Source: a virus (taxonomy: Duplodnaviria; Heunggongvirae; Uroviricota; Caudoviricetes). Taken from it: DNA of 8,671 nt. Below, in pieces: positions 1 through 8,376 of this stretch (positions are counted from its first letter, which is position 1; each line of letters opens with the position of its first letter). The DNA lies in IMG/VR virus record IMGVR_UViG_2537562017_000016. One strand, written 5' to 3'. Under the pieces are notes generated by a model, which was not told the origin of the DNA, did no database searches, and saw only the letters and a program-made list of their open reading frames with translations. Made by a program: the position numbers and the translations under genes.

Positions 1-1256
1 GATTTGAATCCTCCGGCTCCGAGACGGTGCTCGGTACAGAAGTGAAATATGACACGCCGATCACCCGGACCATCACGTCGGCAAACATTGACCGTCTGCG
101 TTTTACTTTCGGCGTGCAGGCACTGGTGGAAACCACCTCAAAGGGGGACAGGAATCCATCGGAAGTCCGCCTGCTGGTTCAGATACAACGTAACGGTGGC
201 TGGGTGACGGAAAAAGACATCACCATTAAGGGTAAAACCACTTCACAGTATCTGGCCTCGGTGGTGGTGGATAACCTGCCGCCGCGCCCGTTCAGTATCC
301 GGATGCGCAGGATGACGCCGGACAGCACCACAGACCAGCTGCAGAACAAAACGCTCTGGTCGTCATACACCGAAATTATCGATGTGAAACAGTGCTACCC
401 GAACACGGCACTGTTCGGCGTGCAGGTGGACTCGGAGCAGTTCGGCAGCCAGCAGGTGAGCCGTAATTATCATCTGCGCGGGCGTATTCTGCAGGTGCCG
501 TCGAATTATAACCCGCAGACGCGGCAATACAGCGGTATCTGGGACGGAACGTTTAAACCGGCATACAGCAACAACATGGCCTGGTGTATGTGGGATATGC
601 TGACCCATCCGCGCTACGGCATGGGGAAACGTCTTGGTGCAGCGGATGTAGATAAATGGGCGCTGTATGTCATCGGCCAGTACTGCGACCAGTCGGTGCC
701 GGACGGCTTTGGCGGCACGGAGCCGCGCATCACCTGTAATGCGTACCTGACCACACAGCGCAAGGCGTGGGATGTGCTCAGTGATTTCTGCTCGGCGATG
801 CGCTGTATGCCGGTATGGAACGGGCAGACGCTGACGTTCGTGCAGGACCGACCATCAGATAAGGTGTGGACCTATAACCGCAGTAATGTGGTGATGCCGG
901 ATGATGGCGCGCCGTTCCGCTACAGCTTCAGCGCCCTGAAGGACCGCCATAATGCCGTTGAGGTGAACTGGATTGACCCGAACAACGGCTGGGAGACGGC
1001 GACAGAGCTTGTTGAAGATACGCAGGCCATTGCCCGTTACGGTCGTAATGTCACGAAGATGGATGCCTTTGGCTGTACCAGCCGGGGGCAGGCACACCGC
1101 GCCGGGCTGTGGCTGATTAAAACGGAACTGCTGGAACGCAGACCGTGGACTTCAGCGTGGGTGCCGAAGGGCTTCGCCATGTACCGGGCGATGTCATTGA
1201 AATCTGCGATGATGACTATGCCGGTATCCGCACCGGCGGGCGTGTGCTGGCGGTGA
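1..1256 (+). CDS. J: J fragment: intact J-like reading from the window edge to about 1136, then out-of-frame read-through to the stop at 1254-1256
   Basis: Six-frame ORF 27..1256 extended to the window edge (no stop upstream in this frame); J-like sequence ends at ...GLWLIKTELLE, after which the J reading (TQTVDFSVGAEG...) continues in another frame. Confidence 0.55.
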   Translation, partial: FESSGSETVLGTEVKYDTPITRTITSANIDRLRFTFGVQALVETTSKGDRNPSEVRLLVQIQRNGGWVTEKDITIKGKTTSQYLASVVVDNLPPRPFSIRMRRMTPDSTTDQLQNKTLWSSYTEIIDVKQCYPNTALFGVQVDSEQFGSQQVSRNYHLRGRILQVPSNYNPQTRQYSGIWDGTFKPAYSNNMAWCMWDMLTHPRYGMGKRLGAADVDKWALYVIGQYCDQSVPDGFGGTEPRITCNAYLTTQRKAWDVLSDFCSAMRCMPVWNGQTLTFVQDRPSDKVWTYNRSNVVMPDDGAPFRYSFSALKDRHNAVEVNWIDPNNGWETATELVEDTQAIARYGRNVTKMDAFGCTSRGQAHRAGLWLIKTELLERRPWTSAWVPKGFAMYRAMSLKSAMMTMPVSAPAGVCWR

Positions 1257-1735
1257 ACAGCCAGACCCGGACGCTGACGCTCGACCGTGAAATCACGCTG
1301 CCATCTCCGGACCACGCTGATAAGCCTGGTTGACGGAGGGATCCGGTCAGCGTGGAGGTCAGTCCGTCACCGACGGCGTGAAGGTAAAGTGAGCCGTGTT
1401 CCTGACGGCGTTGCGATACAGCGTTGGGGGCTGAAGCTGCCGACGTGCGCCAGCGCCTGTTCCGCTGCGTGAGTATCCGTGAGAACGAGACGGCACGTAT
1501 GCCATCACCGCCGTGCAGCATGTACCGGAAAAAGAGGCCATCGTGGATAACGGGGCGCACTTTGACGGCGACCAGAGCGGCACGGTAATGGTGTCACGCC
1601 GCCAGCGTGCAGCACTGACCGCGAAGTCACGCAGACAGCGGGGAATATCAGGTGCTGGCGCGTGGGACACCCGAAGGTGGTGAAGGGCGTGAGCTTCCTG
1701 CTTCGCCTGACCGTGGCAGCGGATGACGGCAGTGA

Positions 1736-3139
<1,404 letters not shown>

Positions 3140-3156
3140 ATTTTATAACCCAGAAC

Positions 3157-3184
3157 GGGCGTCAGAAATGACGCCTTTTTTATT
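3157..3184 (+). terminator. Rho-independent terminator downstream of J
   Basis: Perfect 7-bp stem GGCGTCA (3158-3164) / TGACGCC (3169-3175) with GAAA loop, followed directly by TTTTTTATT. Confidence 0.75.
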
Positions 3185-3205
3185 GCAGAGAAGCGAGAGG
3201 TAATT

Positions 3206-3802
3206 ATGCGTAAACTTTATGCCGCCATTTTGTCCGCAGCCATTTGTCTGGCCGTATCCGGTGCGCCTGCATGGGCGTCTGAACATCAGTCCACGCTGAG
3301 CGCGGGGTATCTTCATGCCTCGACGAACGTTCCCGGCAGCGATGATCTGAACGGGATTAACGTGAAATACCGTTATGAGTTTACGGACACACTGGGGATG
3401 GTGACGTCATTCAGCTATGCAGGAGACAAGAATCGCCAGTACCCGTTACAGCGATACCCGCTGGCATGAAGATTCCGTCGTAACCGCTGGTTCAGCGTGA
3501 TGGCGGGGCCGTCTGTGCGCGTGAATGAATGGTTCAGCGCGTATGCGATGGCGGGTGTGGCTTACAGCCGTGTGTCGACTTTCTCCGGGGATTATCTCCG
3601 CGTAACTGACAACAAGGGGAAAACGCACGATGTACTGACCGGAAGTGATGACGGTCGCCACAGCAACACGTCTCTGGCGTGGGGAGCTGGCGTGCAGTTT
3701 AACCCGACCGAATCCGTGGCCATTGATGTCGCTTATGAAGGCTCCGGCAGTGGTGACTGGCGCACTGACGGGCTCATCGTGGGTGTTGGTTATAAGTTCT
3801 GA
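3206..3802 (+). pseudogene. lom: Lom outer-membrane protein (Ail/Lom/OmpX/PagC beta-barrel family); frame interrupted by three single-base deletions near 3440-3441 and 3479 that create a premature TGA at 3467-3469
   Basis: ATG at 3206 with GAGAGG (3195-3200) 5 nt upstream. ORFs 3206..3469 and 3497..3802 are in the same frame and together give a Lom-like protein (MRKLYAAILSAAICLAVSGAPAWASEHQSTLSAGYLHAS... / ...FSVMAGPSVRVNEWFSAYAMAGVAYSRV...GVGYKF); the 3441-3479 stretch reads as Lom-like (TRYSDTRWHEDSV) only in the shifted frame. Confidence 0.85.
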
Positions 3803-3866: not shown

Positions 3867-6800
3867 ATGGCAGTAAAGATTTCAGGTGTACTGAAAGACG
3901 GCACAGGAAAACCGGTACAGAACTGCACAATCCAGCTGAAAGCAAAACGTAACAGCACCACGGTGGTGGTGAACACGCTGGCCTCAGAAAATCCGGATGA
4001 AGCCGGGCGTTACAGCATGGACGTTGAGTACGGTCAGTACAGCGTTATTCTGTTGGTGGAAGGATTCCCGCCGTCACATGCCGGGACCATCACCGTGTAT
4101 GAAGATTCTCAACCCGGTACGCTGAATGATTTTCTCGGTGCCATGACGGAGGATGATGCCCGTCCGGAGGCACTGCGCCGTTTTGAACTGATGGTGGAAG
4201 AGGTGGCGCGTAACGCGTCCGGGTGGCACAGAACACGGCGCCGCGAAGAAGTCAGCCGTGATGCCAGCACATCAGCCCGTGAGGCGGCAACCCATGCGAC
4301 TGATGCTGCAGGCTCAGCACGCGCAGCCAGCACGTCAGCCGGACAGGCCGCGTCGTCGGCTCAGTCAGCGACTTCCAGCGCAGGAACGGCATCAACAAAG
4401 GCCACTGAAGCATCAAAAAGTGCTGCCGCTGCAGAGTCCTCAAAAAGCGCGGCAGCTACCAGTGCCAGTGCCGCGAAAACGTCAGAAACGAATGCTGCAG
4501 CGTCACAACAATCAGCAGCCACTTCTGCATCCACCGCGACTACGAAAGCGTCAGAAGCTGCCACCTCAGCCCGGGATGCGGCGGCTTCAAAAGAGGCGGC
4601 AAAATCATCAGAAACGAACGCATCCTCGAGCGCCAGTAGCGCAGCTTCCTCGGCAACAGCGGCAGGAAATTCCGCGAAGGCGGCAAAAACGTCAGAGACG
4701 AACGCCAGGTCTTCTGAAACGGCAGCGGGACAGAGCGCCTCGGCTGCGGCAGGCTCAAAAACAGCGGCTGCGTCGTCTGCCAGTGCAGCGTCAACAAGTG
4801 CCGGGCAGGCCTCAGCCAGTGCCACCGCCGCCGGAAAATCGGCAGAAAGCGCCGCATCGTCTGCTTCAACAGCCACAACGAAGGCTGGCGAAGCCACTGA
4901 ACAGGCCAGCGCAGCAGCGAGGTCTGCTTCCGCAGCGAAGACATCCGAAACGAACGCGAAAGCGTCGGAAACCAGCGCAGAATCCTCAAAAACGGCTGCC
5001 GCATCGTCAGCCAGTTCGGCGTCGTCATCGGCATCATCGGCGTCTGCTTCAAAAGATGAGGCGACCAGACAGGCGTCAGCAGCGAAGAGCAGCGCCACGA
5101 CGGCATCCACGAAGGCAACAGAGGCGGCAGGCAGTGCGACGGCAGCATCTCAGAGCAAAACTACTGCTGAATCCGCTGCGACCCGTGCGGAAGCTGCTGC
5201 TGATCGTGCTGAAGAGATTGCCGGTGCAGTTGCGATGGAAGACGCAAGCCTTACAACTAAAGGTGTTGTGAAACTTAGCAGTGCTGTTGATAGCACCAGT
5301 GAATCGCTGGCCGCAACGCCAAAAGCAGTTAAAGCAGCCAATGACAATGCGAATAGCAGGGTGCCATCTAACCGAAAAGTTAACGGAAAAGCATTGACTG
5401 CGGATATAACATTAACGCCGAAAGATATTGGTACTTTAAATTCAGTAACGATGTCTTTCTCTGGCGGGGCTGGGTGGTTCAAACTGGCTACGGTTACCAT
5501 GCCACAAGCGAGTTCCATCGTTTACATCGCATTGATTGGTGGCGCTGGTTACAACGTCGGTTCCCCACATCAGGCAGGCATTTCAGAACTGGTTCTACGA
5601 GCAGGCAATGGAAACCCCAAAGGAATTACCGGGGCTTTGTGGAAGCGTACAGCCGTCGGATTAACGAATTTCGCCTGGATCAACACATCCGGCGATACAT
5701 ATGATATTTACGTTGAGATTGGCAATTATGCGACGAGTGTAAATATCCATTGGGATTGTACTGCAAATGCGTCAGTTTCTGTTTATACCTCGCCAACATA
5801 TTCAGCGAGTAAGCCTTCCAGCGTTACCTATGGTGTTGTTTATACGATGTATAGCTCACATCAGAAACCTACACCATCAGATATTGGAGCACTGCCAACA
5901 ACCGGAGGAACAGTTTCAGGTCCGTTGTCTGTTACAGGTGGATTAACTGGTTCATTGAATGGTAATGCAAGTACAGCCACGAAATTGCAGACGGCAAGAT
6001 CTATCGGTGGAGTTGTTTTCGACGGTTCTGCAAATATTAACCTTCCAGGTGTAAACACTACGGGTAATCAGAACACCACTGGTAATGCTGCAACTGCTAC
6101 AAAACTTCAGACTGCAAGAAAAATATCCGGTGTTCCATTTGATGGTTCTACTGATATCACTTTAACCGCCGCGCATGTGGCTGCTTTTGCCAGAAGGGCA
6201 ACGGATACATATGCCGATGCGGATGGTGGCGTTCCCTGGAATGCCGAATCAGGCGCTTACAATGTCACCCGCTCTGGCGACACCTATATTCTGGTTAACT
6301 TCTATACCGGAGTCGGAAGTTGCCGGACCCTGCAGATGAAGGCGCATTACAGAAATGGAGGTCTGTTCTACCGTTCCTCAAGAGATGGCTATGGTTTTGA
6401 GGAAGGCTGGGCAGAAGTTTATACCTCGAAAAATCTTCCACCAGAAAGCTACCCAGTTGGCGCACCAATCCCGTGGCCATCAGATACCGTTCCGTCTGGT
6501 TATGCCCTGATGCAGGGGCAGACTTTTGACAAATCTGCTTACCCGAAACTTGCAGCGGCTTATCCGTCAGGCGTGATCCCTGATATGCGTGGCTGGACGA
6601 TTAAGGGCAAGCCCGCCAGTGGTCGTGCCGTATTGTCTCAGGAACAGGATGGCATTAAATCGCATACCCACAGCGCCAGCGCATCCAGTACGGATTTGGG
6701 GACGAAAACCACATCGTCGTTTGATTACGGCACTAAATCCACGAATAACACCGGGGCGCATACCCATAGTGTTAGCGGTACGGCTGCTTCAGCCGGTGCA

Positions 6801-7091
6801 CATACCCATTCGATAACATTTGTTTCAGGTGGCACCAAAGGTGCTCCGGGAAGTGGATCACCTGATTATTCTAAATACAGTGTTAACACTTCTTCTGCAG
6901 GCGCTCATACGCACTCTGTATCGGGTACTGCTGCAAGCGCAGGTGCACACGCACATACTGTAGGTATTGGTGCGCATACGCACTCGGTTGCGATTGGTTC
7001 ACATGGACACACCATCACCGTTAACGCTGCTGGTAACGCGGAAAACACCGTCAAAAACATCGCATTTAACTATATTGTGAGGCTTGCATAA
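3867..7091 (+). CDS. stfR: Side tail fibre protein (Stf; Rac-type StfR-like): N-terminal tail-attachment region, Ala/Ser/Thr-rich shaft, tail-fibre repeats, collar-like domain and His-rich HxH C-terminal array
   Basis: ATG at 3867 with GGGG (3858-3861) upstream; the ORF track's GTG at 3861 is less likely. Protein [37 protein letters not shown]...; two KLQTAR-x-I-GG/SG-V-x-FDGS repeats; GAPIPWPSD...[19 protein letters not shown] collar-like motif; repeated GAHTHS/GAHAHT/SHGHT; ends ...[25 protein letters not shown] at 7089-7091. Confidence 0.9.
4260..5230 (+). repeat. Degenerate in-frame tandem repeat region encoding the Ala/Ser/Thr-rich shaft of Stf
   Basis: About 320 codons almost entirely A/S/T/K/E/Q, with a recurring AAKTSETNA-type motif at DNA positions about 4473, 4603, 4681 and 4936. 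GC-rich GCN/TCN/ACN codon bias, which generates the long spurious ORFs in the alternative and antisense frames. Confidence 0.6.
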
Positions 7092-7675
7092 TGGCATTCA
7101 GAATGAGTGAACAACCACGGACCATAAAAATTTATAATCTGCTGGCCGGAACTAATGAATTTATTGGTGAAGGTGATGCATATATTCCGCCTCATACAGG
7201 TCTGCCAGCAAACAGTACCGACATTGCACCGCCAGATATTCCAGCTGGCTTCGTGGCTGTTTTCAACAGTGATGAGTCATCGTGGCATCTCGTTGAAGAT
7301 CATCGGGGTAAAACGGTTTATGACGTGGCTTCCGGCGACGCGTTATTTATTTCTGAACTCGGCTCATTACCGGAAAATGTCACCTGGTTATCGCCGGAAG
7401 GGGAGTTTCAGAAGTGGAACGGCACAGCCTGGGTGAAAGATGCAGAAGCAGAAAAACTGTTCCGGATCCGGGAGGCGGAAGAAACAAAAAACAGCCTGAT
7501 GCAGGTAGCCAGTGAGCATATTGCGCCACTTCAGGATGCTGTAGATCTGGAAATCGCAACGGAGGAAGAAACCTCATTGCTGGAAGTCTGGAAAAAGTAT
7601 CGGGTGTTGCTGAACCGTGTTGATACATCAACTGCACCGGATATTGAATGGCCAACAGGACCCATTATCGAATAG
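7091..7675 (+). CDS. tfaR: Tail fibre assembly protein (Tfa; TfaR-like chaperone for Stf)
   Basis: ATG at 7091 overlaps the stf stop (TAATG), with GTGAGG (7077-7082) upstream, indicating translational coupling. 194 aa, [54 protein letters not shown]..., typical of Tfa. Confidence 0.9.
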
Positions 7676-7683
7676 TGCATTAC

Positions 7684-7722
7684 AAACTGCAGGATATTAT
7701 ATGGGATAATATTCTGCAGTTT
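7684..7722. terminator. 17-bp inverted repeat with 5-nt loop between convergent tfa and pin; candidate bidirectional terminator or protein-binding site
   Basis: AAACTGCAGGATATTAT (7684-7700), loop ATGGG, ATAATATTCTGCAGTTT (7706-7722). One non-Watson-Crick position (G7693 with T7713) is a G-U pair in the + strand transcript. AT-rich stem, so terminator strength is uncertain. Confidence 0.45.
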
Positions 7723-7785
7723 ATTGGGGCTAAAAAAGGGGGCTATTTTGAGTGAGTTATCACCTTCTCACACCGAGATTATTTT

Positions 7786-8376
7786 TTATATGTCAGGTGT
7801 CTGAAGTTTTGCTTTGGCTCTTAAAATGGTTTGCCGCGAGGTTTTGAATTCCCGGGCAATGGCACTTATACTTACACCTGACTTAATTCGTTCGAATACC
7901 GCCTGTTTCTGTTCTTCATTTAACACAGGTGGTCGACCAAAACGTTTCCCTGCGCCGCGGGCTCTTACTATCCCGGAATGAGTGCGTTCAAGTAAAAGGT
8001 CTCGTTCAAATTCAGCGACTGCTGAAATTACTTGCATCATCATTTTTCCTGTTGGACTGGTCAGGTCAATGCCCCCCAATGCTAAGCAATGCACTCTGAT
8101 ACCTGTTTCGGTCAGTTGTTCCACTGTTTTCCTGATATCCATTGCATTACAACCAAGGCGATCCAGTTTTGTCACAATCAATTGATCACCACATTTCAGG
8201 CGAGCAAGCAACCGGTTAAAACCAGGACGCTCACTGGTTGCTGCTGAGCCGCTAATGTGTTCTTCGATTATTTGCTGAGGTTTGATTTTAAAACCTGCAC
8301 TTTCGATTTCCCGGCGTTGATTTTCGGTGGTCTGATCCAGCGTTGATATCCGACAGTAAGCAAAAATTTGAGACAT
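7786..8376 (-). CDS. pinR: Serine recombinase, DNA invertase of the Pin family (PinR/PinQ-like)
   Basis: 196 aa, [29 protein letters not shown]... with the catalytic Ser in the YCRISTLDQ motif at residue 10 and a C-terminal helix-turn-helix region ([21 protein letters not shown]). Start is ATG at 8374-8376 (- strand), stop TAA at 7786-7788. Confidence 0.9.

What the first reader, a model, noticed from the sequence alone, without database searches (positions are those of the whole stretch)
4221..4259. Hidden triple frameshift inside the apparently intact stf ORF
In the stf frame, residues around 119-131 read [13 protein letters not shown], an Arg-rich patch unlike the surrounding Ala/Ser/Thr-rich sequence. 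The other two frames read VAQNTA (4223-4240) and AAKKSA (4240-4257), which fit the context. Restoring one G at each of three G-runs (about 4221-4223, 4238-4240, 4257-4258) gives NASG-VAQNTA-AAKKSA-GDAS. Because the three -1 events sum to -3 and create no stop, ORF calling cannot see them. Other cryptic compensated errors may therefore exist in this window that I cannot detect without a reference.
Basis: partly seen in the sequence, partly recalled or inferred. Interest (0 to 1): 0.55.

Follow-up and report, generated by a model that had tools for sequence, protein, structure and literature searches.

The report
Assembly errors hidden inside tail-fibre gene
Three single missing bases within 37 bp of a prophage side-tail-fibre gene scramble 13 amino acids but leave the reading frame open; they are almost certainly consensus errors of a 2013 draft E. 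coli assembly, not biology.

Summary
In the stf frame, window 4221-4259 reads [13 protein letters not shown], and the other two frames read VAQNTA and AAKKSA. Every homologue examined carries one extra base at each of three sites (after 4221, 4239 and 4257) and reads NAS[A/V]VAQNTAAAKKSA[S/G]DAS. These include the best-ranked places in 5,426 complete E. coli genomes, 120 related proteins and one metagenome scaffold. The patch was not found in three contig collections, and the protein is a singleton cluster.

The window is the whole 8,671-bp contig APWY01000131.1 of draft assembly GCA_000358895.1 (E. coli 178200). The contig carries 26 more single-base deletions and no insertions; they break J and lom. 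Against the nearest relatives, the affected stretches show deletions only:
- 1256-1854: 21 deletions, 0 substitutions.
- 4188-5038: the 3 stf deletions, 0 substitutions.

Twenty of the 29 deletion sites fall on columns where known alleles differ (5 expected by chance). A draft with a neighbouring accession (BCE030_MS-09) shows the same defect in the same gene, while its unique flank is error-free.

Best explanation: a consensus artefact, probably from collapsed diverged prophage copies. The "G-run" detail is wrong, because the missing bases are T/C, A and A/G. This is not a biological feature, and interest is low.

The parts
4221..4259 (+). Scrambled 13-codon patch ([13 protein letters not shown]) in stf. 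It is read in two wrong frames between three single-base deletions.
   Evidence: Three-frame translations; alignments to 9 references and a metagenome scaffold.
4221..4222 (+). Deletion site 1. Homologues have T (Val, GTG) or C (Ala, GCG/GCA) between TCCG and GGTGG. The window's GGG run results from this loss.
   Evidence: The column is polymorphic T/C among references.
4239..4240 (+). Deletion site 2. All references have A (ACGGC-A-GCCGCG). This is not a homopolymer.
   Evidence: The column is invariant among the 9 references.
4257..4258 (+). Deletion site 3. Homologues have A (Ser, AGT/AGC) or G (Gly, GGC) between AGCC and GTGAT.
   Evidence: The column is polymorphic A/G.
3867..7091 (+). 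stf, a lambda/Rac-type side tail fibre gene (1074 aa). Apart from the patch, no indel was found against the nearest relatives.
   Evidence: Pfam PF08400 at residues 1-123, Collar at 865-912, Phage_fiber repeat. 4188-5038 is identical to strain G5 except for the 3 deletions. 5029-6538 is identical to metagenome scaffold L006, and 4602-7091 differs from it only by substitutions.
1134..1783 (+). 22 single-base deletions and no insertions in gene J. They break J into ORFs 27-1256 and 2114-3139. Same error class as the stf patch.
   Evidence: (21 deletions and 0 substitutions in 1256-1854 against strain EC09).
3154..3479 (+). Further single-base deletions: after 3154 in the J-lom spacer, two after 3439, and one after 3478. 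They split lom into ORFs 3206-3469 and 3497-3802.
   Evidence: 3399-3556 against G5: 0 substitutions, 3 deletions.
7091..7675 (+). tfa, the tail fibre assembly gene. It is intact, and the exact protein also occurs on independent contigs.
7786..8376 (-). pin, a serine recombinase/invertase gene. It is intact.

Best explanation
The patch is an artefact of the deposited draft assembly, not a property of the phage gene. The real stf of E. coli 178200 most likely reads ...VARNAS[V/A]VAQNTAAAKKSA[S/G]DASTS..., like all its relatives.

The contig consensus lost one base at each of three positions within 37 bp. The reading frame therefore passes through the two wrong frames for 13 codons and then returns. 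Because the shifted frames of this GC-rich, Ala-rich stretch contain no stop there, the ORF stays open, and the error was carried into a RefSeq protein (WP_071597468.1).

The most likely way the bases were lost is inferred, not shown. The contig is a repeated lambdoid tail region. Reads from two or more diverged prophage copies were stacked into one consensus. At columns where the copies disagree, the consensus caller emitted a gap instead of either base. This would explain why the losses are all single-base deletions, never insertions, mostly outside homopolymers, clustered in patches, and located at allele-variable positions.

Shown: the deletions exist; they are unique to this record; they occur with no accompanying substitutions; they coincide with polymorphic columns; and a sister draft has the same defect.

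Inferred: that they are absent from the real DNA, and the collapsed-copy consensus mechanism.
For: 1. Provenance. The window is identical to the whole 8,671-bp contig APWY01000131.1 of draft GCA_000358895.1, E. coli 178200.

2. Uniqueness.
- No top-ranked place among 12,138 places in 5,426 complete E. coli genomes shows the 3-nt-shorter version; the 40 best rows all span 304 nt for 301 nt.
- The patch DNA gave 0 exact matches in genome contigs, metagenome contigs and viral contigs.
- No protein with the patch was found.
- The Stf protein is a one-member cluster seen on one contig.

3. Restoration.
- Inserting T, A, A gives 99.7% identity to strains EC416 and 'numer 3', and at least 99% identity in 213 records.
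- The PF08400 match rises from 226.8 to 244.3 bits and from 123/134 to 134/134 profile positions.

4. Deletions without substitutions.
- Against strain G5, window 4188-5038 has 0 substitutions and only the 3 deletions.
- Against strain EC09, window 1256-1854 has 0 substitutions and 21 single-base deletions.
- Window 3399-3556 has 0 substitutions and 3 deletions.
- Overall there are 29 one-way single-base losses and no insertions in the affected regions.

5. Position. 20 of the 29 deletion sites lie on, or can slide onto, columns polymorphic among 9 references. The random expectation is 5.0 +/- 2.0, and 0 of 5000 permutations reach 20. The alignment shows the lost bases sitting where the EC09 allele differs from the other alleles.

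6. Same defect in a sister draft.
- E. coli BCE030_MS-09 (APXN01000046.1) has nine 1-nt deletions and 0 substitutions at L016:2290-2495, in the same stf region, against the same-lineage complete genome E1739.
- 2,652 bp of unique chromosomal flank on the same contig is 100.0% identical to E1739.
- 7 of the 9 lost bases are where the E1739 copy differs from another allele.

7. Elsewhere the window is clean. 5029-6538 is identical to an independent metagenome scaffold.
Against: - No reads were available, so the absence of the deletions from the real DNA is not directly shown.
- Site 2 (A after 4239) is invariant in my references, so the 'drop at a disagreeing column' mechanism accounts for only 2 of the 3 stf sites. 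About 9 of the 29 sites overall are not on known polymorphic columns.
- The hypothetical second allele was not found as such. Restoring C, G, G gave no exact match. A crafted second copy for the sister assembly matched at only 97.9%.
- The sequencing platform and assembler of the project could not be documented.
- Ordinary bubble-popping assemblers pick one allele rather than deleting a base, so the exact software step remains conjecture.
Confidence: 0.92

Rival explanations
1. Homopolymer-length miscalls. On this view each deletion is a G dropped from a G-run by a platform that miscounts homopolymers (454, Ion Torrent or nanopore type). This is still an artefact, but a read-chemistry one rather than a consensus one.
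For: Site 1 lies in GGG (4221-4223) in the window as deposited. All losses are deletions of one base. About half of the J deletions touch a 2-base run in the reference.
Against: - By homology the missing bases are T/C, A and A/G, not G. Sites 2 and 3 are not in runs, and the GGG at site 1 exists only because the T/C was lost.
- Many J and lom deletions are in non-repetitive contexts such as GACG[C]TGCG, GGT[G]AAT and CAC[G]CCG.
- Errors are not spread over the contig. 4602-7091 has no indels despite containing runs.
- The unique flank of the sister contig is error-free.
- Homopolymer errors would not be enriched at allele-variable columns.
Confidence: 0.04
2. The deletions are real mutations in a decaying prophage of strain 178200. 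On this view J and lom are true pseudogenes, and stf carries a genuine frame-restoring triple deletion. That would produce a variant fibre with a basic 13-residue linker between the N-terminal tail-attachment domain and the Ala/Ser-rich shaft.
For: - The sequence is what was deposited, and NCBI annotated the ORF as an intact protein.
- Prophage tail genes do decay. The references themselves include truncated stf, tfa and IS insertions.
- A real single-base frameshift in stf is known from laboratory lambda (own knowledge: Hendrix and Duda 1992).
Against: - 29 single-base deletions, no insertions and zero substitutions in the same stretches relative to the nearest alleles is not a natural mutation spectrum.
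- Natural deletions have no reason to fall on columns where other alleles differ.
- The patch was not found in any other genome, metagenome, virus contig or protein searched.
- A second draft with a neighbouring accession shows the same defect, while a complete genome of its lineage does not.
Confidence: 0.03
3. A single complex natural event created the patch in one step. Examples are template switching, or gene conversion from a diverged or misaligned donor.
For: The three changes are tightly clustered (37 bp), and the flanks are identical to known alleles. That pattern is what a short conversion tract would look like.
Against: - No donor sequence with this stretch exists in any collection searched.
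- The change is three clean 1-nt losses, not a replaced tract. The 17-nt segments between the sites are identical to the references.
- This idea does not explain the 26 similar losses elsewhere in the contig.
Confidence: 0.01

Closest known systems
Consensus indel errors at collapsed, slightly diverged repeats in short-read draft assemblies (general knowledge of assembly artefacts; not a curated family)
   Same: - The errors are confined to a multi-copy prophage region on a short contig, and unique sequence is clean.
- The errors sit at positions where copies or alleles differ.
- They are absent from complete genomes.
   Different: The errors here are exclusively 1-nt deletions rather than allele mixtures or Ns. 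The responsible software step could not be identified. One of the three stf sites is not at a known variable column.
Homopolymer-length errors of 454, Ion Torrent or nanopore data
   Same: Single-base deletions that create frameshifts in otherwise conserved genes.
   Different: The lost bases are mostly not in homopolymers, are clustered in patches, and coincide with allele differences.
The stf frameshift of laboratory lambda PaPa, a 1-bp deletion that splits stf into orf-401 and orf-314 (Hendrix and Duda 1992; own knowledge, not checked here)
   Same: Same gene family (lambda/Rac-type side tail fibre with a PF08400 N-terminus), and a single-base deletion within it.
   Different: The lambda lesion is a real, experimentally verified and uncompensated frameshift that abolishes side fibres. 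The case here is three compensating losses, unique to one draft contig and best explained as an artefact.
E. coli K-12 Rac prophage StfR-TfaR-PinR module
   Same: Gene order stf-tfa-pin(-), with ydfK beyond in the relatives. RefSeq labels the homologues stfR/tfaR/pinR.
   Different: The window also carries J and lom upstream. Its stf C-terminus and tfa are of the type found next to the bio locus in other strains. It is 94-96% identical to the nearest complete loci, not the same prophage.

Membership tests
Lambda/Rac-type side tail fibre (Stf/StfR) | N-terminal 'prophage tail fibre N-terminal' domain (Pfam PF08400) | tested here: met
   PF08400 scores E = 9.7e-61 over residues 1-123. The match stops at profile position 123/134, exactly at the patch, and becomes 134/134 after the three bases are restored.
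Lambda/Rac-type side tail fibre (Stf/StfR) | Genomic context: downstream of J and lom, followed by the tail fibre assembly gene tfa | tested here: met
   The order J, lom, stf, tfa, pin is seen in the window and in 8 annotated complete-genome loci.
Sequencing/assembly artefact | The variant is confined to one deposited record and absent from independent sequences of the same allele | tested here: met
   Singleton protein cluster on one contig. No top-ranked place in 5,426 complete genomes has the shorter version. 0 matches in three contig collections.
Sequencing/assembly artefact | Removing the variant yields a sequence identical or nearly identical to independent genomes | tested here: met
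   With T, A, A restored, identity is 99.7% to two genomes and at least 99% in 213 records. Window 4188-5038 is otherwise identical to strain G5.
Sequencing/assembly artefact | The same record shows further errors of the same class, with a non-biological spectrum | tested here: met
   26 more 1-nt deletions and 0 insertions. There are 21 deletions against 0 substitutions in 1256-1854.
Sequencing/assembly artefact | Reads contradict the consensus | not testable with these tools
   No read data are accessible.
Collapsed-repeat consensus error (sub-mechanism) | Errors fall at positions where repeat copies or alleles differ | tested here: met
   20 of 29 sites lie on polymorphic columns against 5.0 expected, with 0 of 5000 permutations reaching 20. 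See also the alignment. In the sister contig, 7 of 9 sites do so.
Collapsed-repeat consensus error (sub-mechanism) | A second copy in the same genome that differs at exactly the error sites; about double read depth | tested here: inconclusive
Crafted second-copy queries found no exact match.
Homopolymer-length sequencing error | The missing base belongs to a run of the same base in the true sequence | tested here: not met
   By homology the missing bases are T/C (between G and GG), A (between C and G) and A/G. Many J and lom losses are in non-run contexts.
Natural compensated frameshift variant | Present in independent isolates or lineages | tested here: not met
   The only similar scramble (P0168) is a different, uncompensated pattern in another draft with a neighbouring accession.

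The most novel reading that the evidence does not exclude
The three deletions are real in strain 178200. In that case a lambdoid side tail fibre tolerates replacement of 14 conserved residues ([V/A]VAQNTAAAKKSA[S/G]) by a 13-residue Arg-rich segment, through a frame-restoring triple deletion. The change lies at the junction between the tail-attachment domain and the shaft, and the neighbouring J and lom genes would be genuinely riddled with single-base deletions at allele-variable sites. That would imply an unknown process that deletes mismatched bases, for example during recombination between diverged prophages.
Probability: 0.03. Interest if true: 0.45.

Novelty: not a real feature. Interest (0 to 1): 0.07.

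Why it matters
This has little biological importance; its value is as a data-quality warning.

- A frame-preserving cluster of consensus errors passes ORF calling and annotation. It has placed a protein with a bogus 13-residue patch in RefSeq and UniRef (WP_071597468.1, a singleton cluster).
- The same contig turns J and lom into apparent pseudogenes.
- Studies that count prophage pseudogenes, tail-fibre diversity or "novel" receptor-binding variants from 2013-era drafts of this kind would be misled. At least one sister assembly, BCE030_MS-09, shows the same defect in the same gene.
- The coincidence of the lost bases with allele-variable columns gives a simple diagnostic for this class of error.

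Tried and rejected
1. Exact and degenerate DNA scans for the patch in genome contigs, metagenome contigs and viral contigs found 0 matches.

2. Protein searches for the patch found none.
- The first search listed only short proteins and did not even list the query's own protein, so it is not exhaustive.
- The targeted 52-aa query returned 6 proteins, none with the patch.
- 'EEVSR' hits in five proteins turned out to be an unrelated upstream MVEEVSRNAS variant.

3. Restoring C, G, G as a hypothetical second allele gave no exact match; the best was 98.7%.

4. A crafted second copy for the sister assembly, intended to locate the other stf copy in its complete-genome relative, matched at only 97.9%, and E1739 was not among the rows. 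This test is inconclusive.

5. Contigs sharing the exact Tfa protein were fetched in the hope of a near-identical independent prophage.
- Most end inside stf.
- Only L006 reaches the site. It is a different allele there, and it also has the three bases.

6. Literature searches for strain 178200, accession APWY and BCE030, made to learn the platform and assembler, returned nothing relevant.

7. The homopolymer-slip explanation was considered and rejected on base identity and context.

8. Natural decay or gene conversion was considered and rejected on the mutation spectrum and the lack of any donor.

9. The indel cluster at 6401-6418 against L002 was checked as a possible second hidden frameshift. 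It lies inside 5029-6538, which is identical to L006, so it is real allelic divergence.

Full report
**What is in the sequence**

The window holds the distal tail region of a lambdoid prophage:
- gene J, broken into ORFs 27-1256 and 2114-3139;
- lom, broken into ORFs 3206-3469 and 3497-3802;
- an apparently intact side tail fibre gene stf (ATG 3867 to stop 7091, 1074 aa);
- tfa (7091-7675);
- a pin-type invertase on the minus strand (7786-8376).

In the stf frame, residues 119-131 (nt 4221-4259) read [13 protein letters not shown]. The frame starting at 4202 reads VAQNTA at 4223-4240, and the frame starting at 4201 reads AAKKSA at 4240-4257. The patch has 5 Arg in 13 residues, against 8 Arg in the next 329 residues.

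**Comparison with relatives**

A megablast of window:4100-4400 against 5,426 complete E. coli genomes found 12,138 places. All 40 best-ranked rows span 304 nt for the 301-nt query. A full-length gap-free match would have ranked above them, and none did.

Alignment to nine annotated loci and to one metagenome scaffold shows one extra base in every reference at three sites:
- after window 4221: T or C;
- after 4239: A;
- after 4257: A or G.

The 17-nt segments between the sites are conserved. Among 120 related proteins, none has the patch. Nearly all that cover the site read [AV]VAQ[NS]TA.AKKSA[SG]DA; the one exception, P0084, is a different frameshifted reading. A second search targeted at the patch also found none.

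Inserting T, A, A gives 99.7% identity to two complete genomes and at least 99% identity in 213 records. The Pfam PF08400 match stops at profile position 123 of 134 on the deposited protein. It covers 134/134 and gains 17.5 bits on the restored one.

The missing bases, however, are not G's from G-runs. The GGG at 4221-4223 exists only because the T/C between G and GG is missing, and sites 2 and 3 are not runs at all.

**Where the window comes from**

An exact-protein look-up shows that the window is the entire 8,671-bp contig APWY01000131.1 of draft assembly GCA_000358895.1, E. coli 178200. The DNA is identical. The Stf protein (WP_071597468.1) forms a one-member cluster seen on one contig among about 15 billion proteins. 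A 51-mer and a degenerate 45-mer spanning the three sites have no exact match in the genome, metagenome or viral contig collections.

**The rest of the contig**

Against complete-genome loci, the window shows 22 single-base deletions and no insertions in J between 1134 and 1783. It shows further single-base deletions at 3154, 3439 (two) and 3478 in and near lom. These break J and lom.

Against the nearest alleles, the pattern is as follows:
- Against strain EC09, window 1256-1854 has 21 deletions and zero substitutions.
- Against strain G5, window 3399-3556 has 3 deletions and zero substitutions.
- Against strain G5, window 4188-5038 has exactly the three stf deletions and zero substitutions.

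A natural process does not produce dozens of one-base losses with no insertions and no substitutions. Elsewhere the contig is clean. Window 5029-6538 is identical to an independent metagenome scaffold (L006), and 4602-7091 differs from it only by substitutions. No second frame-compensated error was found in stf. The indel cluster at 6401-6418 against one reference lies inside that identical span, so it is real allelic divergence.

**Where the lost bases lie**

The alignment shows that the lost bases in J sit at the positions where the EC09-type allele differs from the other alleles. Examples are CATCT[T/C]CCGG[C/T]ACC, GACG[T/C]TGCG, GGT[A/G]AATGG and GCGCG[A/C]TGGG.

Over the three affected regions, 20 of the 29 deletion sites fall on, or can slide within a run onto, columns that are polymorphic among nine references. 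Random placement gives 5.0 +/- 2.0, and none of 5000 permutations reaches 20. An earlier test with eight references gave Fisher p = 8e-6. In stf, sites 1 (T/C, Val/Ala) and 3 (A/G, Ser/Gly) are such columns. Site 2 is invariant in my references.

**A second case**

The targeted protein search turned up P0168 from E. coli BCE030_MS-09 (contig APXN01000046.1, GCA_000356385.1). It has a neighbouring accession and a different scramble at the same place (NAPRGTEHGSREEVSQDAS...).

- Its contig has nine single-base deletions and no substitutions at L016:2290-2495, compared with the complete genome of the same lineage, E1739.
- 2,652 bp of unique chromosomal flank on the same contig is 100.0% identical to E1739.
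- Seven of the nine lost bases are positions where the E1739 copy differs from another stf allele.
- One of them is the same T/C site as site 1 of the window.

This is not an independent occurrence of the same patch. It is an independent occurrence of the same kind of defect, confined to the repeated prophage gene.

**Explanation**

The patch is best explained as a consensus artefact of the draft assembly (confidence about 0.92). The most likely mechanism is that reads from two or more diverged lambdoid tail regions were stacked into one contig, and that the consensus step emitted a gap where the copies disagree. For example, a mismatch may be represented as two half-gapped columns. This part rests on my own knowledge of how multi-alignment consensus callers behave, and it is an inference.

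The mechanism accounts for several features:
- deletions only, always of one base;
- contexts that are mostly not homopolymers;
- patchy distribution;
- coincidence with variable columns;
- clean unique sequence.

It does not fully account for site 2 or for roughly nine other sites. I could not find the postulated second allele, nor the platform or assembler.

Any three successive -1 losses restore the frame, and the shifted frames are open over these 13 codons. So the survival of the ORF is unremarkable.

**Rivals**

- Real prophage decay or a real compensated triple deletion fails on the mutation spectrum, on the coincidence with allele differences, on uniqueness and on the sister-assembly control. 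It cannot be formally excluded without reads (about 3%).
- A one-step conversion event has no donor and does not explain the other 26 losses.

**Comparison with what is known**

The gene itself is an ordinary member of the lambda/Rac Stf family. It has the PF08400 N-terminus, the collar domain, fibre repeats and the context J-lom-stf-tfa-pin.

The only well-known real frameshift in this gene family is the single-base deletion in laboratory lambda PaPa stf (own knowledge, not verified here). That one is uncompensated and experimentally confirmed, unlike the case here.

**Verdict**

The thing itself is not a biological feature. Interest is low and lies mainly in showing that frame-preserving assembly errors can seed reference protein databases.

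Noticed in passing
window 1134-1783: Gene J carries 22 single-base deletions and no insertions relative to complete-genome alleles. In 1256-1854 there are 21 deletions and 0 substitutions against strain EC09. These split J into ORFs 27-1256 and 2114-3139 and create a spurious minus-strand gene call at 1359-2089.
   Followed up: yes
window 3154-3479: lom is split into two ORFs (3206-3469 and 3497-3802) by single-base deletions after 3439 (two) and 3478. One more deletion lies in the J-lom spacer after 3154. GenBank annotated the fragments as separate Ail/Lom proteins (ENG83932.1).
   Followed up: yes
L016:2290-2495 (APXN01000046.1, E. coli BCE030_MS-09): A second 2013 draft with a neighbouring accession has nine single-base deletions in the same part of stf, and the gene is split into fragments. 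Its unique flank (L016:5900-8551) is 100.0% identical to complete genome E1739.
   Followed up: yes
L016:2174-2282, 2831-2921 and 3419-3467 versus L017 (E1739): Apart from the deletion patch, the sister draft differs from its same-lineage complete genome in tight clusters of substitutions: 16 in 110 bp, 7 in 90 bp and 16 in 50 bp. These are separated by long identical stretches. This looks like a consensus that switches between stf copies, or like real gene conversion between prophages.
   Followed up: partly
window 7676-7790: The 90 bp after tfa (to 7766) match contigs in which tfa is followed by a GGDEF host gene next to the bio-uvrB locus (L004-L007). From 7767 the window instead continues into pin, as in Rac/Qin-type loci. 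This is either a natural mosaic junction or an assembly chimera.
   Followed up: partly
window 5029-5083 versus L006:1003-1212: The otherwise near-identical metagenome scaffold L006 carries about 100 bp more in the Ala/Ser-rich repeat region of stf; window 5029-5083 aligns to two places in L006. The repeat copy number differs, or it is collapsed in one of the two assemblies.
   Followed up: no
window 3867-7091 (protein WP_071597468.1): The protein translated from this contig is in RefSeq and UniRef as an intact 'prophage tail fiber N-terminal domain-containing protein'. It forms a singleton 90% cluster, so an apparent assembly error has become a reference protein.
   Followed up: yes
window 6401-6418: A dense cluster of small indels relative to strain 30EVA1 (L002) looked like a second hidden frameshift. 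It lies inside the span 5029-6538 that is identical to the independent scaffold L006, so it is a real mosaic boundary in the receptor-binding part of stf.
   Followed up: yes
output: The word-indexed protein search with a 173-aa Stf segment returned only proteins shorter than 300 aa and did not list the query's own 1074-aa protein. Absence of the patch in that list is therefore weaker evidence than it looks, and the DNA-level searches carry more weight.
   Followed up: partly
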